Below, one piece after another: positions 1,564 to 64,000 of a stretch of DNA of 64,000 bases (position 1 is its first letter; the number at the start of each line of letters is the position of its first letter). The position numbers and the translations under genes were made by a program. The stretch comes from Eledone cirrhosa. Taxonomy: Eukaryota. The stretch covers positions 77,810,001 through 77,874,000 of the forward strand of contig OZ024743.1 of NCBI GenBank assembly GCA_964016885.1, read 5' to 3'. A model generated the notes under the pieces. That model was not told the origin of the DNA. It made no database searches and worked only from the letters and a program-made list of their open reading frames with translations.

Positions 1564-1623
1564 TCTTTATGCTCTGAAGAGTCCCACTTCTAGTGTGGGC
1601 GAAACACTGTTAGCAATTAAAGA
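1564..1623 (+). ncRNA. Type I minimal hammerhead ribozyme
   Basis: tgct-CTGAAGA-g t cccac ttctagt gtggg c-GAAA-c act GTT-agca; stem I tgct/agca extended by tcttta/taaaga. Confidence 0.75.
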
Positions 1624-25295: not shown

Positions 25296-25315
25296 TACAT
25301 TTATAAAACCATATT

Positions 25316-25381
25316 TATTTCCTTATATATATTTCAGGGATATCATATTAAAAATATGGTATGCCCTCTTCAGACAAAATA
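25316..25381 (-). ncRNA. Hammerhead ribozyme (inverted pLTR copy)
   Basis: Reverse complement of 25764-25829 with one stem-I change. Confidence 0.7.
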
Positions 25382-25412
25382 CAATATATACAGTATATAC
25401 AATATATACAAC

Positions 25413-25965
25413 ATAATAGATATTACTCGATCTACCTCTCCTTATTTATTTTTGTTTTTATTTCTCCCCGTATCCTTAACACTAAATAAATAAATAAATA
25501 AATAAATAAATGAATAATTACAGTACCCCCTTCCCTCATAGATCTCTCATTTGGTGGTTTTCTCTTTACATACATTTCTTCATCTTCTTCACCTTCCGCT
25601 CTTTCTTTTTCTTTTCTCCTTCTTTTTCTTTTTTCTTTTTTCCTATTTTCTCCGTCTTTCTTTCTAACCATCCTTAACATTTTCACTACCGTAACAACTT
25701 TTTAAATGGAAGTTGTAAATTCTAAGGTATGTCAAATTTATTTATAAAACTGTCTATATATTGTATTTTGTCTGAAGAGGGCATACCATATTTTTAATAT
25801 GATATCCCTGAAATATATATAATGAAATAAATATGGTTTTATAAATGTAGTTTCCATTTGTTTAATATTGTAAAATACTCCAAAACCTGTTGAGTGCTTT
25901 TATATCAGTTATAAAATATTTACTCGTTGTAACCCAACAATTTTAAATAAAACTTTTGCATATAT
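25413..25965 (+). repeat. 5' pseudo-LTR
   Basis: Near-identical to 29203-29748. Confidence 0.95.
25764..25829 (+). ncRNA. Type I hammerhead ribozyme in 5' pLTR
   Basis: tattttgt-CTGAAGA-ggg..catatt/aatatg..ccct-GAAA-t atat ATA-atgaaata; stem I is 8 bp with 2 GU pairs. Confidence 0.8.
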
Positions 25966-26008
25966 TTTGCTCCAATACTGTTTAGCGCTTTATATTATAA
26001 CTGAAAAA

Positions 26009-28243
26009 ATGGAATTCTTTAAGATCTCTTCTTCTCTATGAGACATACCTCTACCTAGAAACAAAGACTTTATTAAACAATTAATAAATAAATCAGACTC
26101 TTTTATAAGGAGAATCGGGTGGCGTGCATTCCACTTTGATAAATCTAATACAAATGAAAATGACTCAGACTTAGATAAAGTTTTCAAATCTAAAAAAAAT
26201 CCACCCCCCCAACAAACTTTTAATTGATTTTGAAAACGATATAATCTCTATCATACAAGGAGTCAAATTCAAGAGAAACTTCAAAGGCCAGGAATATCTG
26301 AAAAGCATTAAGGATAATATTGTGAGCTTAGAGAGAACAGAGAAGATCTTGGTGAAATCGGACAAAACCAACAACCTCTATGGACTGGATAAAGACATGT
26401 ATAATGGCCTCATACTGAAAGAACTAAGGAAAAAGTACAAGGTAGCAGATAAGGCTGAACTTGAGAAAATGAACGTTGAGGCATCTTGTATAATGCATGA
26501 GTTGGAAATTGAGAACAAAACACAACCTTTCTTGCCCAGGAAACCCAAGATCAATATGAAAGATCACAAAAGAAATTTTGAAAACGACTTGCCAGTCAGA
26601 TTGATTGCACCATCAAAATCTGACCTGGGTAAACTTAGCAAAAACATTCTAGACAGGGTGATACAGCAAATTAAGAACTTGAATTGTTCACCTAACTTAA
26701 GCTTGTGGAAGGGAACTGGAGAGGTTATTGAGTGGTTTAAAGAAATTAAATATAACAATAATAATAAATTTATTCAACTAGATATTGCTAACTACTATTC
26801 ATCTATTACCCGTAACCTACTAAATAAGGCACTAAATTATGCATTCAAACATACAGACCTAACTAGCAATGAAATGCACATTATACTATCGGCAAGAAAA
26901 ACATTGATAGAATTTAATAACCAACTATGGACTAGGGCAGATAGGGATAGCAATTTTGACATTACTATGGGATCATCTGACTCAGCTCAGGTAACAGACC
27001 TTGTGGGCCTATTTATAATTAATTCGCTGCATAGAAAAATACCCGGTGCTACCGGAGGATTATATCGAGATGACATGCTTTTACTTATTGAAAATAATAA
27101 CTCTGAACTAAATAGAAAAAGAAAACAAATTATACAATTTTTTTAATTACCTTAATCTAAAAATAGAAATTGAGAATAACCATAGAATAGTCAATTTCCT
27201 AGATGTAACATTAAATCTCAACACATGTCTTCACTATCCATTTCACAAGTTAAATAAAAACTTGAATTATGTCAACTTTAACTCCAACCACCCCAGATCT
27301 GTTAAAAATACTATAGTGAACTCTGTTCAAAAACGTATCTCTAGAATCTCATCTAATAAAAATATTTTCGACCAAAAAGCCCACTATTACAATGAAGCGT
27401 TAGCTAGAGCAGGATATAGTGATAAAATTATGTACATCGATAATAATAGACAAACTAACCAAAATAACAACAATTTTAATTACGGTAACAACTTTAACAA
27501 CTATAATAGAAAGAATTACAATAATTCCAAAAACCAGAAAAGAAATAGAACTAGAAACATAATTTGGTTTGCCCCCCCCCCCCCCCCCTTTCTCACTAAA
27601 CATTAAAACCCACATCGCTAAACTATTTTTTAATGCTCTTGACAAACGATTCCCTAGAACACATAAGTATCACTCAATTTTCAATAGACATACTATAAAA
27701 TTAACCTACTCGTCCACCAAAAATTTAGCACAAAATATTAATAGAATAAATAATAGGAATCTAAAACCTAGCCAAAATACCGATAATAGCATAAACAATA
27801 TTCAAGTAAACAACTGTAACTGTAGAGATAGATCTAAATGCCCGTTAAATAACAATTGCTTAGTTAAAAATATAATATACAACTGTAATGTTAAAACTGA
27901 CTTAAATTCTTTTAATTATGTTGGTTCCACCTCGACAGAATTTAAACTTCGCTATAATAATCACAAGAATTCTTTCACAGATCCAAACAAAAAATATTCA
28001 ACATCACTATCAGGCTTACTCTGGCAACTTAAACATGATAACGTTGGATATTCGACGGTTTGGAATATAGTCTCAAGAGGGATTCCTTTTAACTCCTCCT
28101 CTGAGACATGTGACCTCTGCGCGGAGGAGATATTCTTTATACTAAAATCTAAAAATTCCCTTAATTTACGGACCAATTTATTCAGTTGCTGCAGACATAG
28201 ATTGAACTCAACTTTTAAATATAAATATAAGTTTAAAATGTAG
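26009..28243 (+). pseudogene. PLE ORF (RT + GIY-YIG endonuclease), frameshifted at homopolymers
   Basis: DIPLP..FIRRIGWRA, VKSDKTNN, FIQLDIANYYSSI, ITMGSSD, GLYRDD, CNC..CPL..C..NIIY..YVGST..FKLRYNNH, CDLC..E..CRH. Breaks at C-run ~26204, T-run ~27138, C-run ~27572, and an early TGA. Confidence 0.9.
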
Positions 28244-29202
28244 TATATTTACTTAAGACTTTTAATTATTTTAAGAAAACTTGGCGATAAATCTTTCGAT
28301 TCCTTCAATTCTTTAAACCTTCTTCATGAATATATAATTAATAATGTAATTAAACTACCTTAAAACGGTGATGATCCAAATCTATTGAATAAAATTTTTA
28401 AGCTAGATAAACTTCTATAATAAATATAAGAGCATCTGTAGAACAACCGAGTATCCTAAAGTTTTTTTTTTGAATGATTTCTGCTAAATAAGTTTGGTGA
28501 ATAATTTTGGTTTTGTTTGCTTTTGACTCTGATTGCTTCTAATAAACTTGGCAATATTGTCAAATAAATTGGAGGGATTGATTGATATGCTGGGCACACT
28601 GTGTTTTTATTACGGCCCTAGATATTCTTGGGAGGAAAATATTCTCGGCGTTTTTAATATTTTAATATATTGATATCTGATCTATTCTATGCTTGTACGA
28701 TAATCATGTAAGAAGAGGCAAGAATATTATTATTATTAATAATGTATATTTTATGTATATAATCTTTTTAACGCAATGAAGATTTCCATGTGAAATAAAA
28801 ATTTACAGAGCTGATCATGTAAACTCACATGTGTCTATAATGTCAATTTGAGATAACCTTCTCTTTTTCTTTCTCTTTTCTCTTTTTTCATGAAAATACA
28901 TATATACTTATGTATTCCAGTATTTTTTGAGGTTTTATCTCAGATTTTGATTATAAACCTATGAATTTTTAAACTAAACATATAGTCATTATTTTTTCAC
29001 ACATTATTGATATGTGTCTCATTCATGAATATTGATGTTTACATTATAATTCATAGGAATTGATAGACTGATGAAACATAATATTTTAAAACTATCATTT
29101 TTGTTTCTAAGTATATCTCCTCTCCTCCTCCCTCTACTCTTATATCGGCTGTTTTAACTCTATCTCCTGTATATCACCCCTCCCCTATCTCTCCCACCTC
29201 GT

Positions 29203-29748
29203 ATAATAGATATTACTCGATCTACCTCTCCTTATTTATTTTTGTTTTTATTTCTCCCCGTATCCTTAACACTAAATAAATAAATAAATAAATAAATGAA
29301 TAATTACAGTACCCCCTTCCCTCATAGATCTCTCATTTGGTGGTTTTCTCTTTACATACATTTCTTCATCTTCTTCACCTTCCGCTCTTTCTTTTTCTTT
29401 TCTCCTTTTTCTTTTTTCTTTTTTCCTATTTTCTCCGTCTTTCTTTCTAACCGTCCTTAACATTTTCACTACCGTAACAACTTTTTAAATGGAAGTTGTA
29501 AATTCTAAGGTATGTCAAATTTATTTATAAAACTGTCTATATATTGTATTTTGTCTGAAGAGGGCATACCATATTTTTAATATGATATCCCTGAAATATA
29601 TATAATGAAATAAATATGGTTTTATAAATGTAGTTTCCATTTGTTTAATATCGTAAAATACTCCAAAACCTGTTGAGTGTTTTTATATCAGTTATAAAAT
29701 ATTTACTCGTTGTAACCCAACAATTTTAAATAAAACTTTTGCATATAT
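29203..29748 (+). repeat. 3' pseudo-LTR
   Basis: Near-identical to 25413-25965. Confidence 0.95.
29547..29612 (+). ncRNA. Type I hammerhead ribozyme in 3' pLTR
   Basis: Same motif as 25764-25829. Confidence 0.8.
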
Positions 29749-30600: not shown

Positions 30601-32010
30601 AAATATAACATCTTTTGGAAGAAGGTTTCTTCTGCGTTTTTATACTTGAACAGTTCTCTATCCAAAATCTGCAATCTCTGTCTAAATGAAAAATTTACCA
30701 TTATCTCTAATCTAGATTCTATAATAAATAGACGCACTGACTTGTTTTCTATCTGCTTGCATAAATTCCATAAAACATTTCACAAAGTATACAGCTAATA
30801 TTCAATTTTTTATCAATTTAGAATCTTTTTCTCAAAGGCACATATATATATACACTTCTTTTAAAAATATACCAATCTTTCTACCTTATTTCAAAGGTCA
30901 TTATACATTCTATAATACTTGTCTACTCTTTCTACATCACCCCTATTTATCACTTCCCTTTCCTCTCTTCTTCTTCTAATGTCTAACCCCTAATCTGTAC
31001 CTTTTCTCACTCCTGCCTAACATAGAATCAATTATTACATAATACAACACATTCTTACTCTATATCACCTTGTAAAAATCCTTCGTAAACATATACATTT
31101 TTTTTGACGTTAGATTATTCATCCTCAATTCACTATTCTCTTCTCCCTTTCATCTAACTCATTTTTTCTTCGCACATATTATCAAACCCCTCAATATACA
31201 AACCTTAACTTTACATTATTTTTCTCTTCGTTAATTTTCAAATTCTATAATACTTGTCTACTCTTTCTACATCACCCCTATTTATCACTTCCCTTCCTTC
31301 TCTTCTTCTTCTAATATCTAACCCCTAATCTGTACCTTTTCTCACTCTTGCCTAACATAGAATCAATTATTACATAACACAACACATTCTTACTCTATAT
31401 CACCTTGTAAAAACCCTTCGTAAACATATACATTTTTTTTGACGTTAGATTATTCATCCTCAATTCATTATTCTTTTCTCCTCTTCATCTAACTCATTAT
31501 TCTCAATACATATTAACTCTTTCTTTTTCTTCGCACATATTATCAAACCCCTCAATATACAAACCTTAACTTTACATTATTTTTCTCTTCGTTAATTTTC
31601 AAATTCTTTTAATTTATACATTATCTTCCAACGGTTTTCAACCTCTCTATGTAAAACAATATATCTTTCTCAGTTATAAAAGCTATCTTTCTCTCTCTAT
31701 CACCCATCTCTCCTCCTATTATCCTTCCTCATTATACCCCCCCCTCTCCACCTTCACTCTCATCTCCTCCTTTCTTTCATCCTTGCCACCCCCCCCTCTA
31801 AATAAAATATTTTTCCCAATATCACACATCAATCTAAAACCACTTCTCATATGTTGATTTAAAACTGAACTATCCACAAGTGTTTTTTAACCTTCATATC
31901 ATGTCCTCCTGTTTTATCTGATGAAAACACAAATATTATTGCATGATGATATTTGTTTTTGAAATGCACATAATAAAATACATGGAACTCTTTTAACCAT
32001 CTTTTGTTCT
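30601..32010 (+). mobile_element. 5'-truncated PLE of a second family (GIY-YIG C-terminus + 3' UTR + hammerhead)
   Basis: 30604-30798 translates [10 protein letters not shown]...[14 protein letters not shown]...[13 protein letters not shown], homologous to the end of the 28243 ORF; internal ~335-bp tandem duplication at 30908/31243. Confidence 0.85.
31910..31980 (+). ncRNA. Type I hammerhead ribozyme
   Basis: tgttttat-CTGATGA-aaac acaaatattat..atgatatttgt tttt-GAAA-tg ca cATA-ataaaata. Confidence 0.8.
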
Positions 32011-38276: not shown

Positions 38277-38778
38277 TATTTGGATTGGATGTTGTGGTAC
38301 CAACTTTATAGAGAGAAGGTGGTGTTGGTGGGAGTGGGAGGATAGGGTAGGAGTAGTGGATTGGGGTGTATATTTGGTTAAGGCACCTCTTAACCAAATA
38401 TACACCCCAATCCACTACCCCTACTCTTTCCTCCCACTCCCACCAACACCACCCTCTCTCTATAAAGTTGGTACCACAACATCCAGTCCAAATAAATGAG
38501 CTAAATGAGATCGAGATCGTGTAGGTGTCACGAAAAAAAAACACAGAGTCCACGCTGTAATGTGGCCGTGTAGGTAACACGGTAAAAAGTTCCCAGTTCC
38601 ACACTTTAAATGTGGTTGGTGTTAGGAAAGGCATCCAGCCATAGAAAACCTGCCAGACAGTCCTATATGAGCGAGACACGGTCACCCGACCAACCTTGCC
38701 TCAAGTGGGACAACTCCCGTCTAACTCATGCTAGCGTGGAAAATGGATGTTAAACGATGATGATGATGATGATGATGT
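38277..38778 (+). mobile_element. RTE 3' UTR insertion with snap-back inverted duplication of its 5' end
   Basis: 38388-38778 matches the RTE 3' UTR + (TGA)n; 38277-38381 is the reverse complement of 38388-38493. Confidence 0.85.
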
Positions 38779-47540: not shown

Positions 47541-47933
47541 CACTGTAAAGTGGTTGTGTAGGTGTCACGACAAAAAACACCCAGTACTCATTGTAAAGTG
47601 ATCTTATAGGTATCACGACAAAAAGCACTCAGTCCACACTGTAAAGTGGTTGTGTAGGTGTCATGACAAAAAACACCCAGTACTCACTGTAAAGTGGTCG
47701 TCTAGGTGTCACATCAAAAAGCACCCAGTCCACATTATAAAGTGGTTGTGTAGGTGTCACGACAAAAAGTACCTAGTCCACACTGTAAAGTGGTTGTGTA
47801 GGTATCACAACAAAAAGCACCCAGTCCACACTGTAAAGTGGTTGTGTAGGTATCACAACAAAAAGCACCCAGCCCACTCTGTAAAGTGGTTGTGTAGGTG
47901 TCATGACAAAAAGCACCCAGTATTCACTGTAAA
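47541..47933. repeat. Short array (~8 units) of the 48-bp RTE-3'UTR-derived monomer
   Basis: cactgtaaagtggttgtgtaggtgtcacgacaaaaaacacccagt units. Confidence 0.9.
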
Positions 47934-48494
47934 AGAGGTTGGCAACATGCTCTGCAGCATAGAGTTAGGGCCCTTTACATTCTAAGTTCAAATCGTGCCG
48001 AGGTTAGCCTTGCCTTTCATCCTTACGGGGTTGATCAAATAAAGCACCAGTAATGTACTGAGGGCGATTAATCGGCTTTCCTCTCGTCCAAAATTGCTGG
48101 CCTTGTGCCTAAATCAGAACTCTTTATTGTTGTGGTTGTTAGATTGGCAGAATTGGTAGAGCAATGGGTAAAATGCTTTGTGGCATTCTGATTTCAAACC
48201 CTGCTGAGATTGACTTTGTCTTTCACCACACTATAAAGTGGTTGTGTCAGTATCATGACAAAAAGTACCCAGTACTCATTGTAAATGCGGTTGGTGTTAG
48301 GAAGGGTATCCAGCTGTAGAAACCAAGCCAAAATCAGTTCTGTATGAGCAAGACATGGTCACCTGACCTGGCATTGCCTACAACAAGACAACTCAACTAA
48401 CCCATGCCAGCGTGGAAAAATGGATGTAAAACGGTGATGATGATGATGTTTCAAGCTGTGTCTCAATGGTTTGGATGTCAGTTTGTCAGTGGAA

Positions 48495-52898: not shown

Positions 52899-53607
52899 TG
52901 GTGAATTGGCAGTATCGGTAGAGGGTTGGACGCCATGCTTCGATGCATAGAGGTACGGCCCTTGCCATTCTGACTTCAAATCTCGCCTAGGTTAACTTTG
53001 CCTTTCATCCTTACGGGGTCGATAAAATAAAGTACCAGTAATGCACTGGGATAATTGCTGGCCTTGTGCCAAAAGTAGAAACAGTTATATACGAGAAAGA
53101 ACCATCAAATCTGACCAAATCTGACTACAATTTCTCTGACTATTTTCTGAAATGAACGGATTAAAACAATGTTTTCATCATACAGACTGGACAGTTTTCC
53201 TAAAGTTGAAATTCTATATTATATTTTCAGAAGGTATTATGGCAATGGTGTGTGAAATGTTGGATAAATTTACAGTTTCAGCTATAGAAAGAAATATAAG
53301 AGGATAGTTGTAAGTATTGAAGTATCGTAATAGAACACTGAATGGTAAATTGGTAGAGTCATTAAAATATGGGATAGAATTTCACCAAGTGTAACTTTGA
53401 CTGTTATAGTTTTGGTGTTGATAAACTAGCAGTTCATTACTTGTGCCCTGTCCACCCTCAAAGATGATTGGTCTTTATCAGGGTTAAAAGATGTCCACGG
53501 CACACCAGAACCGGGATCTCTGGCATTATGCAGTGAAGCTGAAGCATTCATATATATGGTATGCTCTCCCATACATCTCTCATGAGGACAGGCTGTAGTG
53601 AAGCCTC

Positions 53608-54275
53608 CAGTCCACACTGTAGAGTGGTTGTGTAGGTGACATGACAAAAAGGGCCCAGTCCACACTGTAAAGTGGTAGTGATGGTGACATGACAAAAAGG
53701 GCCCAGTTCACACTGTAGAGTGGTCGTGTAGGTGTCATTACAAAAAGAACTGAGCCACTTTATGTGGTTGGTGTTAGGAAGGGCATCCAGCTATTGAAAC
53801 CAAGCCAGAAACAGTTCTGTGTGAGCAAGACATGGACACCTGACCCAACATGCCCCAAATGGGGCAACTCGTCTAACCCATGCTAGCATGGAAAAATGGA
53901 CGTTAAATGGTGATGATGATGATGATAAACACCTCCCATGTCATAACATCCCACCCTTCCCCTATGTTCCTAGATCTAGCCCACTAATCCCCACACACCT
54001 CCCTCACCCAAGTCCCCAAGTCACACTGTAGAGTGGTTGTGTAGGATTCACATCAAAAGTGCACAGTCCACATTGTAGAGTGGTCATGTAGGAATCACAA
54101 CAAAAAGTGCACAGCCCAGACTGTAAATGTGGTTGGAAGGGCATCCAACCATAGATACCTGGCCAAAATCAGTTCTGTGTGAGCAAAACACTGTCCTCGA
54201 CCTGGAAGTCTCACAATGGGACAACTTGTCTAACCCATGGTAGCATGGAAAATGGATGTTAAATGATGAAGATGA
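53608..54275 (+). mobile_element. Two RTE-3'UTR-type short repeats with 48-bp monomers and (TGA)n tails
   Basis: ggttggtgttaggaagggcatccag..aacccatgctagcatggaaaa..(tga)n; similar at 48225-48448, 50677-50790(-), 59520-59730. Confidence 0.75.
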
Positions 54276-54349
54276 TATATATATATATATATAGTGAAAA
54301 ATGGAATGGGAACAAAACAGAGAGGCAGTACGAACAAAGGTTTATTAGT

Positions 54350-54415
54350 TTCACGCTCTTGAGAGTGGGGGGGGGGGGGGGGCGTTTCGGGCATAAGCCC
54401 TTCTTCAAGCGAAAA
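54350..54415 (-). ncRNA. Disrupted PLE hammerhead
   Basis: TTGAAGA-a gggc ttat gccc-GAAACG, then a C-run replaces the cleavage triplet. Confidence 0.55.
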
Positions 54416-55857
54416 GTGTGTGTTCCGAGGGTGTGTAGGGCAGTGGAGGAGAGACATTTAGAAAAAGGGGGGGGGGCGGTGGAAGGGGTATAAATAAAAA
54501 TAAATATAAAAAAATAAAAATAAACATGAAGATAAACAAGTGGTGGAAGGGTGTGGGGCGTGTAGGGGTGGTGACGGGTGGAGTGGGGAGAGGGAGGCGG
54601 GTGTCCGTGCGGGGAGGGATGAAGGTGGTGTATGTGTAGGTGTACGTGTGTGTGTGTGTGTATGTGAATGTGAGAGTTGGGGGAAGAACGAGGTTCCATG
54701 TTCAGGAAAAGGTGTGTGTGTGGGGTGGGGTGTAGGTCGGTGTGTGTGCGCGTGTGGATGGGGAGGGGTCAGAGGGGTGGGGGAGGGGTGAGAGGATTCT
54801 GGAGGCTGAGTGTGTATATATGTGGGGGTACGCACGTGTGTGTGGTGTTTATACGTATTGTGGATGTAGGTGGCGTGGTGCGAAAATTAATTTTTGTGAG
54901 TGTATGTCCGTGGGTAAGTTCCTAAGGTAGTTCCGTAGAGCATGTGGTGAGTTGCCGGGTATTTTCCTTGTGATGGAGTTGATGGTGGGAACGATGGCCA
55001 ATGGTGTGTGATCCGTGGTTGTGTTGGTCGGAAGAGGGGAGATGTGGGGTGCGGGCGCAACAGGAAGTGGTCAGAGGGTCAAGGCAGGAGGAGGGTAGAG
55101 GAGAATGACAGGTGGAAAGGGCTGAGTGTCTGTGTGTGCAGAGAAGTGGTCAGAGGGTCAAGGCATACAGCAGTAGAGGAGAAAGTCAGTGTGTCAGTGT
55201 GTGCGGAGGTGCGGTGGACAGAGAAGAGGATGGGTAGGTGTGAAAGGTGGAGTGGGGAGAGGGTCAAGCGGGGGGATAGGGTGTGTATTAGTAGAGGTGT
55301 TAGTGGGGTGTGTGTGTGTGTGAAGAGGTGTAGGTGGAGCGGGGGGGGAGAAAGGTGTGGGGGACGATTGAGGGAGTGTGGTGTACTGGTGTGTGTGTGT
55401 GGTGAAGGGGGTGTTAGTGGGTGTTAGTATACTGGTGGTGGGGAAAGGGTTGAATGCGGGTGTGTCAGTGGGGATCAGTGGTGGTAGGGTGTGTAGAGTG
55501 GGTGGTGTAAGTCGGTGTGGGTGGGTGTGTGCGTGGGGTCGGGGGGATGTTAATGGTATTAGTTGTGGGGTAGTGGGAGTGGATGTGTGGGTGAGGGTTA
55601 GTAGTGGTAGTAGGGTGTGTGGATAGTGTGAGTGCGTGTATATATGTACCGGTGGGTGTGTGCGTGATAGGGGAAGGGGGAAGGGGGATGTTAGTATTGT
55701 TAGTTGGGGAGGGTGGTCGGGGGTGGGGTGGTTATGTTAGTATTGTTAGTTGTGGGGTGGGCTGTGAAAAGGAGGAGTGTGTTAGTGGTGTTAGTGGGGG
55801 ATGTGTGTGTGTGGGGGGGAACAGGGCGGTCGAAGGTTAAAGGAATAGGGGTGGGGA

Positions 55858-58337
55858 GTTCAAGCCGGGGGGGGGGGTCTGTAGGGTGAAGATGGTGCGT
55901 TATTCGACCCTGTTGTGGGTGGCGGGTGTTCCGTGGCATTGGAGAAGGCCACAGACTGTGAGGTGGCGCGCGGAATGTCCAGGGGAGCCAAAGTGGCGGG
56001 CGATGGGGGAACTCTCGCCGAGACGAATATCCCGGAGGTGTTCGGTAAAACGGTCCGCCAGGCGACGTCCAGTCTGTCCGACGTAGGTTGCGCTACACTC
56101 CGTGCAGCGAAGTCCATAGACTAGGTTGGAGGAGGTGCAGCGGACGGCGTGCCGGACAGAGAGAGAGTAGCCGTTGGGACCCTGGAAGGTGGTGGTGTTG
56201 GTGAGGTGGGGGCAGGTGTTGCAACGAGGCCTAGAACAGGGAAGGGAACCGGGGGGGGGGGCTGCAGACGAGGAGGGTGCGGAAATTGCGTGCGCGTTTG
56301 AAGGAGGGGAGTGGTGGCGATGGGAAGATGTGGGAGGTGGAGGGGTCGGACTGGAGGCGCCGGAAGAGGCGGAGGATGGTGCGGTGGAGGGGTAGGGTGG
56401 AGGGATGGTAGGTGATGTGGAAGGGGAGACGGTGAGTGGGTGTGCGGTGGCGTGGAGTGAGGGTTGTGAGCGGTGGACAGCACGGGCGCGAGTGAGGGCG
56501 GTGTGGACGAGGGAGGGGGAGAACCTCTGAGGATGAAATGGCTGACTAGGGAAAGGGCCTGGGATTTAAAGTCAGCATCTCGGCTGCAGAGGCGGCGGAT
56601 CCTGAGGAGTTGGGAGTAGGAAATAGAGTGTTTAGTGTGTGTAGGGTGGGATGAGGTGAAGTCGAGGTAGGAGTGGGAGTCGGTGGGTTTGAAGAAGGCG
56701 GAGGTGACGAGGGAGTGGTGGGAGGGGTCGATGGCGACGGAGATGTCCAAGAAGTGGACGTGGGTGGTGGAGATAGATGTGGTGAAGTGGAGGGAGGGGT
56801 GGAAGGAGCAGAAGAAGGAGAGAAAAGTGTCGAGCTGTTCTCGGGTGAGGGTCGTGGCTCCGATACAGTCGTCGATGTAACGACCGTACAGTTCTGGCGT
56901 GGGGTCGGTGTACTGGGCAAAGATTTGGGCCTCAACATGGCCAACGAAAAGGTTGGCATAGTTTGGGCCCATTCTTGTGCCCATGGCTACCCCCGTGACC
57001 TGTTGGTAAAACTAACCCGAGAAGGAGAAACAGTTGAGGGCGAGGACCAGCTCGGCGAGGCGAATGTGGGTGGAGGGGATGGGGAGGAGCGAAGGTCGAG
57101 GTAGTGCTTGAGGGCACGTAGGCCGTCGGCGTGGGGGATGACAATATAAAGAGACTTGATATCTAAGGTGAAGAGGAAGGGCTGTGGGCCGGGTGGGAAG
57201 GTGAAGGAGTCGAATAGGCGAAGGTGAAGGAGTCGAATAGGCGAAGGGCGTGGTTGGTGTCAGAGATGTGGGAGGGGAGGGTGGTGACGAGGGGGGCGAG
57301 GATGGAGTCAAGAAAGGCGGAGATGAGTTCGGTGGAGCAGTTGCAAGTGGAAACGATGGGGCGGCTGGGGTTGTCGGGTTTGTGGAGTTTGAGGAGGAAG
57401 TAGATAGTGCGGGGGGGGGGGAGGGCGATGAGGTGGAAAGAGGGGGGGGGGAGACATGGTGTTGGATGGTCTAGGAAACTTGTTGTTGGTAGAGGGGTGT
57501 GGGGTCGGAGGGTAGAGGGCGGTAGAAGAGGGGGTTACGGAGCTGTCCGAGGGCTTCAGCCGTGTAGAGGTCAGCGCTCCACACCACCACGGCGCCTCCC
57601 TTGTCCGCCGGTTTGATGACGATGTCATCTTGACTACGGAGGGAGCGGAGAGCGAGGAGTTCTCCCCGTGAGATGTTATGCCGTGAGATGTTAAATCGAA
57701 GCGATTTACTGTGCTACGACAGGCGTTGACGAACGCGTCCAGGGTGCTAAATTGCCCTGGGGCCGGCGTCCAAGACGATGGTCGTCGGCCCAGGGCGAGA
57801 AACGGGTCTGGGGCGTTCAGAGCCGGTGGCGTTTGATCGAAATGTGCCTGTAGCTTAGTGCGTCGCACGAATCGCTCGACTTCCGTTCGGGTGTGGAACT
57901 CGTCGCTGTGCGGAGTGTGGGGTATAAAGCGAAGGCCTCTACTGAGGAGTGAGCGCTCAGGTGCGGAGAGGGGGGAGGTCAGGGGGTATGGTGACCACAA
58001 GTGGTGGGGTTTGGGTGTGTGAAGGAGGAGGGGAGGGTGTCGTGAGGGGTTAGGTGGAGTGTGGAGATTGGGTAGGGGTGTGGGGGGGATAGTGGTGGGA
58101 GGGGGGTCATATGAATGGGCGGTGGTGGTGGATGGGGGTGGTAGGGAGGAGTGAGTGTAGCTTAAGGGCTTTGGTGGAGGTGAGGAAGGAGAAGAGGTCG
58201 TGGTTGAGGTTTTGGATGAAGAGGAGGATGGAGTGGGCGAGGAGAGGGTGGCAGGCGGAGTTAAGGCGGAGGAGGGTGGGGGTCAGTTGGTAGTCAAGTT
58301 TGTGGATGGTGGAGCGGGAGGAGCGGAGAGAGTTGCG
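55858..58337 (-). pseudogene. PLE ORF (RT + GIY-YIG), frameshifted at C-runs
   Basis: LLSRGLRFIP, LFTLDIKSLY, MGTRMGPNYANLF, YGRYIDDC, FLDI, CSRPRCNTCP linker, NLVYGLRCTECSATYVGQTGRRLADRFTEH. Confidence 0.9.
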
Positions 58338-58417
58338 CATATATATATATATATATATATAGGTTGAAATAAAATGAAAACGAAATTTCATTTCTCACTC
58401 TTAGTATGGCACTTACT

Positions 58418-58475
58418 TAAATGTAAGTATGTATGTATACGTACATACATATATGTATACAGACGTACAGTAGCA

Positions 58476-58521
<46 letters not shown>

Positions 58522-58785
58522 CAGGTACACATACATATATGCACGCATCAGTTTAGCGAACGTTCAACTATCTGGCAGATGGGTATACGGTGCTGATGAT
58601 AGCTAACAAGCTTGAAACTAGTACATCATTCCTGTGTCAGTGTTGAACAAAAAGGTGACGTGGTTGCCTTAACACCGTATGGCATAAATTCAGGCTGTTC
58701 AGTTTGTTTACAAACGAACAAAGCGGCGTTATAATAAGCGTCCACTAAACTGATGCGTGCATATATGTATGTGTACCTGTATGTA

Positions 58786-58829
<44 letters not shown>

Positions 58830-58882
58830 TGCTACTGTACGTCTGTATTCATATATGTATGTACGTATACATACATACTTAC

Positions 58883-58887
<5 letters not shown>
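58418..58887. mobile_element. Non-coding foldback unit: ~140-bp inverted arms around a 188-bp loop
   Basis: 58418-58556 is the reverse complement of 58745-58887. Confidence 0.85.
58589..58627 (+). ncRNA. Type I minimal hammerhead in the foldback loop
   Basis: ggtg-CTGATGA-t agct aaca agct t-GAAA-c ta GTA-catc; distal pairing gttcaac/gttgaac and ctggca/tgtcag. Confidence 0.75.
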
Positions 58888-58918
<31 letters not shown>

Positions 58919-59792: not shown

Positions 59793-62700
59793 CTCAGTCC
59801 ACATTATAAAGTGGTCGTGTTGGTATCATGACAAAAAAGCACTCAGTACACACTGTAAAGTAGTCATCTAGGTGTCACAACAAAAAGCACCCAGTACACA
59901 CTGTAAAGTAGTCATCTAGGTGTCACAACAAAAAGCACCCAGTACACACTGTAAAGTAGTCATCTAGGTGATACAACAAAAAGCACCCAGTCCACACTGT
60001 AAAGTGGTCATCTAGGTGTCACAACAAAAAGCACCCAGTACACACTGTAAAATAGTCATCTAGGTGCCACAACAAAAAGCACCCAGTACACACTGTAAAA
60101 TAGTCATCTAGGTGTCACAACAAAAAGCACCCAGTACACACTGTAAAATAGTCATCTAGGTGCCACAACAAAAAGCACCCAGTACACACTGTAAAATAGT
60201 CATCTAGGTGCCACAACAAAAAGCACCCAGTACACACTGTAAAATAGTCATCTAGGTGCCACAACAAAAAGCACCCAGTCCACACTGTAAAATAGTCTTA
60301 TAGGTGTCACAATAAAAAGCACCCAGTACACACTGTAAAATAGTCATCTAGGTGTCACAACAAAAAGCACCCAGTACACACTGTAAAATAGTCATCTAGG
60401 TGTCACAACAAAAAGCACCCAGTACACACTGTAAAATAGTCATCTAGGTGTCACAACAAAAAGCACCCAGTCCACACTGTAAAATAGTCATCTAGGTGTC
60501 ACAACAAAAAGCAACCAGTACACACTGTAAAATAGTCATCTAGGTGCCACAACAAAAAGCACCCAGTACACACTGTAAAATAGTCATCTAGGTGCCACAA
60601 CAAAAAGCACCCAGTCCACACTGTAAAATAGTCTTATAGGTGTCACAATAAAAAGCACCCAGTACACACTGTAAAATAGTCATCTAGGTGTCACAACAAA
60701 AAGCACCCAGTACACACTGTAAAATAGTCATCTAGGTGTCACAACAAAAAGCACCCAGTACACACTGTAAAATAGTCATCTAGGTGTCACAACAAAAAGC
60801 ACCCAGTCCACACTGTAAAATAGTCATCTAGGTGTCACAACAAAAAGCAACCAGTACACACTGTAAAATAGTCATCTAGGTGTCACAACAAAAAGCATCC
60901 AGTACACACTGTAAAATAGTCATCTAGGTGCCACAACAAAAAGCACCCAGTACACACTGAAAAATAGTCATCTAGGTGCCACAACAAAAAGCACCCAGTA
61001 CACACTGTAAAATAGTCATCTAGGTGCCACAACAAAAAGCACCCAGTACACACTCTAAAATGGTCTTATAGGTGTCACAACAAAAAGCACCCAGTACACA
61101 CTGTAAAATAGTCATCTAGGTGCAACAACAAAAAGCACCCAGTCCACACTGTAAAATAGTCATCTAGGTGTCAACAAAAAGCACCCAGTACACACTGTAA
61201 AATAGTCATCTAGGTGCCACAACAAAAAGCACCCAGTACACACTGTAAAATAGTCATCTAGGTGTCACAACAAAAAGCACCCAGTCCACACTGTAAAATA
61301 GTCTTATAGGTGTCACAACAAAAAGCACCCAGTCCACACTGTAAAATAGTCTTATAGGTGCCACAACAAAAAGCACCCAGTACACACTGTAAAATAGTCA
61401 TCTAGGTGTCACAACAAAAAGCACCCAGTACACACTGTAAAATAGTCTTATAGGTGTCACAACAAAAAGCACCCAGTACACACTGTAAAATAGTCATCTA
61501 GGTGCCACAACAAAAAGCACCTAGTACACACTGTAAAATAGTCATCTAGGTGCCACAACAAAAAGCACCCAGTTCACACTGTAAAATAGTCATCTAGGTG
61601 CCACAACAAAAAGCACCCAGTACACACTGTAAAATAATCATCTAGGTGTCACAACAAAAAGCACCCAGTCCACACCGTAAAATAGTCATCTAGGTGTCAC
61701 AACAAAAAGCACCCAGTACACACTGTAAAATAGTCATCTAGGTGCCACAACAAAAAGCACCCAGTACAAACTGTAAAATAATCTTATAGGTGTCACAACA
61801 AAAAGCACCCAGTACACACTGTAAAATAGTCATCTAGGTGTCACAACAAAAGCACCCAGTACACACTGTAAAGTAGTCATCTAGGTGCCACAACAAAAAG
61901 CACCCAGTACACACTGTAAAATAGTCATCTAGGTGTCACAACAAAAAGCACCCAGTCCACACTGTAAAATAGTCATCTAGGTGCCACAACAAAAAGCACC
62001 CAGTCCACACTGTAAAATAGTCATCTAGGTGTCACAACAAAAAGCACCCAGTCCACACTGTAAAATAGTCATCTAGGTTCCACAACAAAAAGCACCCAGT
62101 ACACACTGTAAAATAGTCTTATAGGTGTCACAACAAAAAGCACCCAGTACACACTGTAAAATAGTCTTATAGGTGTCACAACAAAAAGCACCCAGTACAC
62201 ACTGTAAAATAGTCATCTAGGTGCCACAACAAAAGGCACCCAGTCCACACTGTAAAATAGTCTTATAGATGTCACAACAAAAAGCACCCAGTACACACTG
62301 TAAAATAGTCATCTAGGTGCCACAACAAAAAGCACCCAGTACACACTGTAAAATAGTCATCTAGGTGCCACAACAAAAAGCACCCAGTACACACTGTAAA
62401 ATAGTCATCTACGTGCCACAACAAAAAGCACCCAGTACACACTGTAAAATAGTCATCTAGGTGCCACAACAAAAAGCACCCAGTACACACTGTAAAATAG
62501 TCATCTAGGTGCCACAACAAAAAGCACCCAGTACACACTGTAAAATAGTCATCTAGGTGTCACAACAAAAAGCACCCAGTCCACACTGTAAAATAGTCAT
62601 CTAGGTGCCACAACAAAAAGCACCCAGTACACACTGTAAAATAGTCTTATAGGTGTCACAACAAAAAGCACCCAGTACACACTGTAAAATAGTCATCTAG

Positions 62701-64000
62701 GTGCCACAACAAAAAGCACCCAGTACACACTGTAAAATAGTCATCTAGGTGCTACAACAAAAAGCACCCAGTCCACACTGTAAAATAGTCATCTAGGTGC
62801 CACAACAAAAAGCACCCAGTACACACTGTAAAATAGTCATCTAGGTGCCACAACAAAAAGCACCCAGTACACACTGTAAAATAGTCATCTAGGTGCCACA
62901 ACAAAAAGCACCCAGTACACACTGTAAAATAGTCATCTAGGTGTCACAACAAAAAGCACCCAGTACACACTGTAAAATAGTCATCTAGGTGTCACAACAA
63001 AAAGGACCCAGTACACACTGTAAAATAGTCATCTAGGTGCCACAACAAAAAGCACCCAGTACACACTGTAAAATAGTCATCTAGGTGCCACAACAAAAAG
63101 CACCCAGTACACACTGTAAAATAGTCTTATAGGTGTCACAACAAAAAGCACCCAGTACACACTGTAAAATAGTCATCTAGGTGTCACAACAAAAAGCACC
63201 CAGTACACACTGTAAAATAGTCATCTAGGTGCCACAACAGAAAGCACCCAGTACACACTGTAAAATAGTCATCTAGGTGCCACAACAAAAAGCACCCAGT
63301 ACACACTGTAAAATAGTCATCTAGGTCCCACAACAAAAAGCACCCAGTACACACTGTAAAATAGTCATCTAAGTGCCACAACAGAAAGCACCCAGTACAC
63401 ACTGTAAAATAGTCATCTAGGTCCCACAACAAAAAGCACCCAGTACACACTGTAAAATAGTCATCTAGGTGCCACAACAAAAAGCACCCAGTCCACACTG
63501 TAAAATAGTCTTATAGATGTCACAACAAAAAGCACCCAGTACACACTGTAAAATAGTCATGTAGGTGTCACAACAAAAAGCACCCAGTACACACTGTAAA
63601 ATAGTCATCTAGGTGCCACAACAAAAAGCACCCAGTCCACACTGTAAAATAGTCTTATAGATGTCACAACAAAAAGCACCCAGTACACACTGTAAAATAG
63701 TCATGTAGGTGTCACAACAAAAAGCACCCAGTACACACTGTAAAATAGTCATCTAGGTGCCACAACAAAAAGCACCCAGTACACACTGTAAAATAGTCAT
63801 CTAGGTGCCACAACAAAAAGCACCCAGTACACACTGTAAAATAGTCTTATAGGTGTCACAACAAAAAGCACCCAGTCCACACTGTAAAATAGTCATCTAG
63901 GTGTCACAACAAAAAGCACCCAGTACACACTGTAAAATAGTCATCTAGGTGCCACAACAAAAAGCACCCAGTACACACTGTAAAATAGTCATCTAGGTGC
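59793..64000. repeat. 48-bp satellite (acactgtaaaatagtcatctaggtgYcacaacaaaaagcacccagtMc), runs off window
   Basis: ~87 head-to-tail units, no spacers. Confidence 0.98.

What the first reader, a model, noticed from the sequence alone, without database searches (positions are those of the whole stretch)
58418..58887. Small non-coding foldback unit with a hammerhead ribozyme in its loop
Seen: ~140-bp inverted arms, partly built of TA-like sequence but sharing unique motifs (cagacgtacagtagcatgc; gcacgcatcagtttag). They enclose a 188-bp loop holding a minimal type I hammerhead (CUGAUGA..GAAAC-UA-GUA) with a long distal stem-I extension. There is no ORF. Known: minimal hammerheads occur in PLE pLTRs and in non-autonomous retrozymes. 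Inference: this is a non-autonomous ribozyme retro-element with a rod-like RNA, possibly mobilised by PLE RT. It sits ~80 bp from the 5' end of the Neptune PLE, but its hammerhead differs from that element's.
Basis: partly seen in the sequence, partly recalled or inferred. Interest (0 to 1): 0.75.

Follow-up and report, generated by a model that had tools for sequence, protein, structure and literature searches.

The report
Two-armed insertion of hammerhead retrozyme
This foldback is one truncated, back-to-back copy of a very abundant non-coding repeat that carries a predicted self-cutting RNA, and the fixed, complementary end points of such copies suggest that a Penelope-type reverse transcriptase writes them into the genome from both cut DNA strands.

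Summary
The hammerhead and inverted arms are real, but the arms are not terminal repeats. The loop belongs to a 420-490 bp unit found in head-to-tail arrays; its 30-nt ribozyme core has 24,602 exact genomic matches. The window holds one insertion, 58362-58887: a 5'-truncated forward arm plus an inverted piece of the same unit, both ending in (TA)n. The true left end lies 56 bp further out and only (TA)11 from the Neptune-type element. About half of sampled insertions are two-armed. 3' ends fall mostly at two sites about 60 nt apart. Of 77 two-armed pairs, 55 have one end at each site and none has both at the outer site (about 13 expected). Penelope-type terminal repeats in the same loci obey the same rule (9 of 9). 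This is the Penelope 'tail' signature on a non-LTR retrozyme. Stem I covaries, and a sister 310-bp family keeps the fold with changed letters. Cleavage, expression, circles and the partner element are untested or unfound. This single-ribozyme copy is likely a dead end. The scan noted similar two-armed retrozymes before on other DNA of this genome.

The parts
58362..58887 (.). Whole two-armed (head-to-head) retrozyme insertion, flanked by (TA)n on both sides
58362..58558 (-). Inverted arm: 3' part of the unit, ending at outer site II (carries the tail); no ribozyme
   Evidence: L001 classed II + I
58362..58417 (-).
   Evidence: tail 62-63 nt, 57 from the position where this copy's right arm ends
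58557..58887 (+). Forward arm: 5'-truncated monomer starting 67 nt before the cleavage site and ending at inner site I; lacks about 150 nt of the unit
58557..58558 (.). Inversion junction with 2-bp CG microhomology
   Evidence: sequence compared with intact units
58587..58629 (+). Type I hammerhead: stem I (with a C.A mismatch at pair 5 in this copy), CUGAUGA, U.U plus 3-bp stem II, GAAA, palindromic minimal stem III, GUA; predicted cut after 58623
58562..58648 (+). Extended stem I enclosing the ribozyme (predicted)
   Evidence: z = -2.8, 1 of 200 shuffles as stable
58340..58361 (.). (TA)11 target remnant between the insertion and the Neptune-type element
58888..58916 (.). (TA)n target remnant at the right end
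54294..58339 (-). Neighbouring decayed, 5'-truncated Penelope-like element (RT motifs, CxxC linker, GIY-YIG; the Neptune label rests on the linker motif). Context, not part of the insertion
   Evidence: GIY-YIG E 0.006, below the Pfam cut-off

Best explanation
The foldback is one 5'-truncated, two-armed insertion of an abundant tandem hammerhead repeat (a non-LTR retrozyme), likely written into a (TA)n tract by a Penelope-type RT-endonuclease that primed on both cut DNA strands. Shown: unit, copy number, arrays, (TA)n targets, two fixed 3' end sites, one arm ending at each site. Inferred: tandem source copies are transcribed; the hammerheads cut, probably as dimers through the palindromic stem III; monomers are probably circularised; a Penelope protein, probably a dimer, cuts both strands of (TA)n and starts one cDNA at site I and one at site II of the same RNA; copying round the circle or along a multimer gives arrays; the two cDNAs are joined head to head by microhomology. 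If only one cDNA survives, a one-armed copy ending at I or II results. The window copy has a single ribozyme, so it would not release a monomer and is likely a dead end.
For: 24,602 exact core matches, control 0. Arrays of 2-9 units of 422-613 bp, 400-459 bp without the (TA)n run. Two-armed inserts: 63 of 125 ribozyme-bearing inserts in the discovery and validation sets. End rule over 77 pairs: 55 I+II, 0 II+II, 2 called I+I, 20 with another end; about 13 II+II expected, p about 5e-7. In the 60-locus validation set alone 27 of 29 are I+II, p 8e-7, and both exceptions end in the unit's internal (TA)n run. One-armed inserts: 31 at I, 33 at II, 9 other. Four Penelope-type terminal-repeat families in the same loci have two (TA)-followed ends 55-68 nt apart and pair I+II in 9 of 9 inverted cases. 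The tail and the inverted 5'-truncated copy are described as PLE features (PMC8557442). A purified PLE cuts and extends both strands and starts RT at two internal sites that bound the tail (PMC11167929). Stem I pair 3 is G.U 126, U.G 57, A-U 13, C-G 2 of 203 copies. A sister 310-bp family (9,235 cores) keeps the geometry with changed stems. Opposite arms are identical yet differ from all other sampled loci in L036 and L074.
Against: No autonomous partner found: no homology beyond short T-rich matches to 11 sampled PLE 3' regions. No cleavage, expression or circle data. Only 42 of 145 units have their strictly nearest neighbour in their own locus, and some arrays differ by 5-9 changes per 170 nt, so a single monomer template is not proven. 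No sense-strand A-to-G excess as a trace of an RNA stage (75 vs 68, p 0.32). Three of the 27 validation 'site I' calls are loose and may be ends in the internal (TA)n; one discovery pair (L091) is counted twice. The tail (57-63 nt) is longer than the 30-40 bp in PMC8557442. Eight of nine Xenopus retrozymes predicted active did not cleave in vitro (preprint), so the fold does not guarantee activity.
Confidence: 0.82

Rival explanations
1. Orphan pseudo-LTR without a circle stage: the unit is a detached PLE terminal repeat, mobilised by the same PLE machinery but from linear read-through multimers; the hammerhead is kept for another reason or only inherited.
For: All end and tail evidence fits equally. 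Hammerhead cleavage was dispensable for PLE insertion in vitro (PMC11167929). Many arrays are not uniform. Retrozymes are reported to be related to pLTRs in Xenopus (preprint).
Against: One ribozyme per unit, conserved with compensatory changes across subfamilies about 20% apart and in a sister family. Arrays of up to 9 near-identical units over both arms (L061, L099, L006). No parent PLE found in the sample.
Confidence: 0.12
2. LINE-type twin priming on poly(TA) followed by DNA-level tandem expansion produced the inversions and arrays.
For: Junctions carry short microhomology. In 18 of 38 pairs one arm starts within 40 nt of the other arm's end (null 13.1, p 0.02). RT-encoding elements of non-LTR type occur in the window.
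Against: Twin priming (recalled, from L1) predicts one fixed 3' end and a variable internal priming point, not two fixed sites always used one per arm. The same rule holds for PLE terminal repeats here. 20 of 38 pairs are not adjacent.
Confidence: 0.04
3. One reading: a discrete foldback element with terminal inverted arms whose rod-like RNA is the mobile unit.
For: The window copy folds into a 145-bp rod. One other locus, L006, has the same junction.
Against: Junction positions are scattered over the unit. The arm sequence is internal in intact tandem units. Half of the inserts have no second arm.
Confidence: 0.02

Closest known systems
Metazoan non-LTR retrozymes (Cervera and de la Pena 2020, PMC7229834; parts 2-4 of 6 and passages read)
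   Same: Non-coding tandem units of a few hundred bp, one type I hammerhead each. The U.U mismatch at the base of stem II recalls axolotl HHR_Amex2; the weak palindromic stem III recalls HHR_Amex1, which works as a dimer.
   Different: Longer unit (420-490 bp) with an internal (TA)n hairpin; dispersed short arrays in (TA)n; half are head-to-head with a strict two-site end rule. 'Inverted', 'microsatellite' and 'octopus' do not occur in that paper's main text. It only proposes PLEs as partner.
Non-LTR retrozymes as PLE derivatives (Li, Clavereau, Pollet 2026, bioRxiv 10.64898/2026.07.22.740005; parts 1-3 of 5 read, supplements closed)
   Same: PLE dependence; monomers, dimers and multimers.
   Different: Their evidence is co-occurrence and pLTR homology in vertebrates, and they favour local tandem expansion. 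Here the evidence is the insertion scar, and no pLTR homology was found.
EN+ Penelope-like elements: inverted pLTR, tail, microsatellite targets (Craig et al. 2021, PMC8557442, passages read; Frangieh et al. 2024, PMC11167929, parts 1-2 of 4 read)
   Same: 5' truncation, partial tandems, inverted 5'-truncated copy, tail at one end only, AT-rich or (TA)n targets, two RT start sites.
   Different: No ORF; tail about 60 nt rather than 30-40; here one site per arm is counted as a rule.
Non-autonomous Chlamys elements such as MRC1 (PMC8557442, passage read)
   Same: Non-coding PLE dependants with multicopy head-to-tail insertions.
   Different: Those share 3' ends with autonomous families, and that clade is described as lacking canonical hammerheads.

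Membership tests
Non-LTR retrozyme | Type I hammerhead in each unit | tested here: met
   Core, three stems and NUH site by inspection; covariation in stem I; weak Rfam HH9 hit
Non-LTR retrozyme | Head-to-tail tandem units of a few hundred bp (family level) | tested here: met
   86 cleavage-to-cleavage monomers of 422-613 bp in L001-L060, some loci overlapping; arrays up to 9 units
Non-LTR retrozyme | At least two ribozymes in tandem in this copy ('active' copy in the preprint's sense) | tested here: not met
   The window copy has one ribozyme; it is a truncated member, not a source copy
Non-LTR retrozyme | No protein coding | tested here: met
   No ORF of 120 aa or more over 58362-58887
Non-LTR retrozyme | Self-cleavage | not testable with these tools
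   Needs in vitro transcription
Non-LTR retrozyme | Expression as linear and circular monomers | not testable with these tools
   No RNA holder listed; contigs only
PLE-mobilised element | Tail: two fixed 3' end sites, extension at one end only | tested here: met
PLE-mobilised element | Inverted 5'-truncated copy at the 5' side; partial tandems | tested here: met
   63 of 125 inserts; scattered 5' ends
PLE-mobilised element | Microsatellite or AT-rich target | tested here: met
   (TA)8 or longer in 100 of 100 loci (the unit itself holds a TA run) vs 4 of 20 controls; most 3' ends are followed by TA
PLE-mobilised element | Sequence homology to the pLTR of an autonomous PLE | tested here: inconclusive
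   None among 11 sampled 3' regions; the genome's PLE families were not surveyed
MITE / foldback element | Terminal inverted repeats with shared boundaries across copies | tested here: not met
snRNA-promoter satellite (newt satellite 2 type) | Internal octamer/PSE/TATA promoter with snRNA-gene spacing | tested here: inconclusive
   The octamer 12-mer matches U6 upstream DNA, but spacing to the TATA-like box is about 5 nt shorter, no alignment beats shuffles (best p 0.065), U1/U2 promoters differ, and one young subfamily changes the octamer to restore a hairpin

The most novel reading that the evidence does not exclude
Animal retrozyme circles are copied by a dimeric Penelope RT-endonuclease whose two subunits each prime one cut DNA strand at a different, fixed site of the same circular RNA and roll round it. 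The strict I+II rule would be a genome-scale record of that two-headed reaction, and this 60-nt tail region would be a ready minimal substrate for reconstituting it.
Probability: 0.4. Interest if true: 0.75.

Novelty: new variant of a known kind. Interest (0 to 1): 0.5.

Why it matters
Which enzyme moves animal retrozymes has been proposed from co-occurrence and terminal-repeat similarity but not shown in the papers read. Here a non-coding retrozyme carries the PLE-specific insertion scar at thousands of sites. The one-site-per-arm rule also says something testable about PLE chemistry: the two RT start sites seen in vitro would be used in one reaction, one per DNA strand. By exact cores alone the family covers roughly 0.4% of the genome (24,602 x about 450 bp; my estimate). 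The window copy itself is an ordinary truncated member.

Tried and rejected
Rfam scan of the whole window gave only microsatellite-driven miRNA hits among the 150 of 311 rows shown. Internal snRNA-type promoter: not supported, left inconclusive. RNA evidence: no RNA holder listed; laying contigs of 4 of 6 runs showed the family in two runs of organism A, and 0 and 1 contigs in organisms B and C, so presence in other species is not shown. ADAR-type A-to-G strand bias: none in 338 units. Link to the Neptune neighbour: no homology. PLE coding sequence lies in 16 of 40 and 15 of 60 retrozyme loci against 1 of 20 control windows, but the controls mostly lack (TA)n and the queries came partly from these flanks, so a shared target explains it and co-mobilisation is not shown. 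The first PLE count (50 of 55) was spoiled by a low-complexity query and redone (18 of 55). Classical twin priming: only a weak signal. Twelve I+II 'pairs' of a small hairpin element were left out of the control because they are self-matches of one fixed foldback. Paper searches; none listed a cephalopod or (TA)-targeted two-armed retrozyme, but most subscription papers, Repbase/Dfam and the preprint's supplements were not visible, and the supplements of the other papers were not opened.

Full report
Observation. The motif reads as a type I hammerhead: stem I, CUGAUGA at 58593, a U.U mismatch and 3-bp stem II, GAAA, a single C-G pair with a two-base loop, and GUA with the predicted cut after 58623. 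Stem III lies in a 6-nt palindrome, which would allow an intermolecular helix in a dimer (direct from the sequence; dimer activity of such motifs is described in PMC7229834). Rfam gives only a sub-threshold HH9 match. No ORF of 120 aa or more overlaps it.

What the unit is. A search of the own genome with the loop returned 40 scored copies at 97-100% identity out of 554 candidates; nearly all match from 58557 rightwards and not the left arm. These loci hold head-to-tail arrays of a unit of 422-613 bp, 400-459 bp without its internal (TA)n run. The 30-nt core has 24,602 exact matches, the reversed control none. The window copy is a forward arm that starts 67 nt before the cleavage site and an inverted arm made of the unit's downstream part, joined at a CG microhomology. 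About 150 nt of the unit are missing from the forward arm. The true left end is about 58362, only (TA)11 from the truncated Penelope-like element. The 'arms' are therefore an insertion by-product. An intact monomer is predicted to fold as a branched, well-paired RNA (z = -5.7), not as a rod.

Is the ribozyme under selection? Among 203 copies, found allowing 3 mismatches to the core and so partly selected for it, the core varies commonly only at the free position of CUGANGA and at one loop-2 base. Stem I pair 3 is G.U, U.G, A-U or C-G in 198 of 203; these are a few subfamily events, not 198 independent ones. An independently found 310-bp tandem family (9,235 exact cores) keeps the same geometry and loop 2 but changes stem I, stem II and the stem III palindrome. 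The window copy has a C.A mismatch at stem I pair 5, shared by 22 of 203 copies.

Insertion anatomy. I analysed 55 loci taken in order from the first 22 Mb of contig 1, 29 best-match loci, and a later validation set of 60 loci from two subfamily patterns. 5' ends are scattered over the unit. 3' ends fall mostly at two sites 62-63 nt apart, each followed by (TA)n. One-armed inserts use them equally (31 site I, 33 site II, 9 other). Two-armed head-to-head inserts make up 63 of 125 ribozyme-bearing inserts in the discovery and validation sets. Of 77 classifiable pairs in all three sets, 55 are I+II, none is II+II although 64 of 154 ends are II (about 13 expected, p about 5e-7), 2 were called I+I and 20 have another end. 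In the validation set alone the count is 27 of 29 (p 8e-7). Both I+I cases end in the unit's internal (TA)n on inspection. Three validation site I calls are loose, and L091 holds what is probably one insertion twice. The window copy is II (left) + I (right).

Internal control. Four Penelope-type terminal-repeat families in the same loci, three of them directly downstream of GIY-YIG frames, each have two (TA)-followed ends 55-68 nt apart, and their inverted pairs are I+II in 9 of 9 cases. PMC8557442 (passages) describes the inverted 5'-truncated copy and a tail often at one end only as PLE features not seen in LINE insertion. PMC11167929 (parts 1-2 of 4) shows a purified PLE cutting and extending both strands of AT-rich DNA, starting at two internal RNA sites that bound the tail, and predicts a dimer; it also found hammerhead cleavage dispensable in vitro.

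Mechanism. Shown: unit, abundance, targets, end rule. Inferred, with decreasing confidence: mobilisation by a PLE protein (about 0.9 counting the orphan-pLTR rival); ribozyme cleavage of multimers (likely); a circular template (plausible: opposite arms are identical and distinct from other sampled loci in L036 and L074, near-identical in L061, L099 and L006, but only 42 of 145 units are strictly closest to their own locus; 68 of 757 private substitutions are shared by two or more units of one locus); one start site per strand by a dimer (best reading of the I+II rule). The partner is not identified: 11 sampled PLE 3' regions show no real homology. The Neptune neighbour is most simply a separate insertion into the same (TA)n.

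Negative results. An octamer and a TATA-like box in the part missing from the window resemble this genome's U6 upstream DNA, and a snRNA-type promoter is cited for newt satellite 2 (passage in PMC2220036; original not read). Spacing, shuffle tests and a hairpin-restoring change in one subfamily do not support it here. No A-to-G strand bias. No RNA data.

Comparison and novelty. The family works like, and by every feature testable here is, a metazoan non-LTR retrozyme (PMC7229834, parts 2-4 of 6). The window copy is a truncated member with one ribozyme. PLE dependence is proposed there and argued from co-occurrence and pLTR homology in a 2026 preprint (parts 1-3 of 5). I found no paper reporting the tail or two-armed rule for retrozymes (searches; library limits apply). 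Earlier notes of this scan, read only after my analysis, report the same two-armed reading for this and sister families on other DNA of this genome; they are not independent support. Verdict: new variant of a known kind; interest 0.5. The label 'cephalopod' comes from those notes and my recall, not from a call of mine.

Noticed in passing
L099:5600-7601, L092; G000 contig 1 list: Sister retrozyme family with a 310-bp unit, 9,235 exact cores, same hammerhead geometry, also two-armed; arrays of 25 or more units.
   Followed up: partly
window 25296-29748: Penelope-like element (RT and GIY-YIG frames 26175-28243) with direct pLTRs (25413-25965 / 29203-29748), a short inverted 5' piece (25296-25390), three hammerhead-like motifs and (TA)-rich flanks: the same architecture on a coding element.
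   Followed up: partly
L087, L083, L090, L070, L068: Five of 19 multi-ribozyme arms in the discovery set start 30-36 nt before the cleavage site, within a 7-nt span at the 5' strand of stem I. It may mark a transcription start or an RT stop; unexplained.
   Followed up: partly
L006:1500-1520 and window 58557: L006 has the same inversion junction as the window copy although it carries other subfamily variants; possibly recurrent use of the CG microhomology.
   Followed up: no
L023, L033, L056, L062, L072, L075, L079, L083, L084, L092: A fixed foldback of about 190 bp in (TA)n with ends at two sites 77 nt apart and no hammerhead noticed: looks like a MITE-sized PLE dependant.
   Followed up: partly
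window 38290-38481 and 192-342: Long near-perfect hairpins (source of the top Rfam miRNA hits); not examined.
   Followed up: no
window 59800-64000, related pieces at 47541-47940 and 53601-53750: 48-bp minisatellite of about 85 copies; shorter related arrays elsewhere in the window.
   Followed up: no
L101-L124 (U6, U2, U1 loci): U6 genes here have an octamer-like 12-mer at about -78 and a TATA box at -31; U1 and U2 genes share short motifs at about -89 and -57 and also a TATA-like box at about -31.
   Followed up: partly
window 1574-1604 and 31918-31964: Two more hammerhead-like motifs of other families near (TA)n tracts.
   Followed up: no
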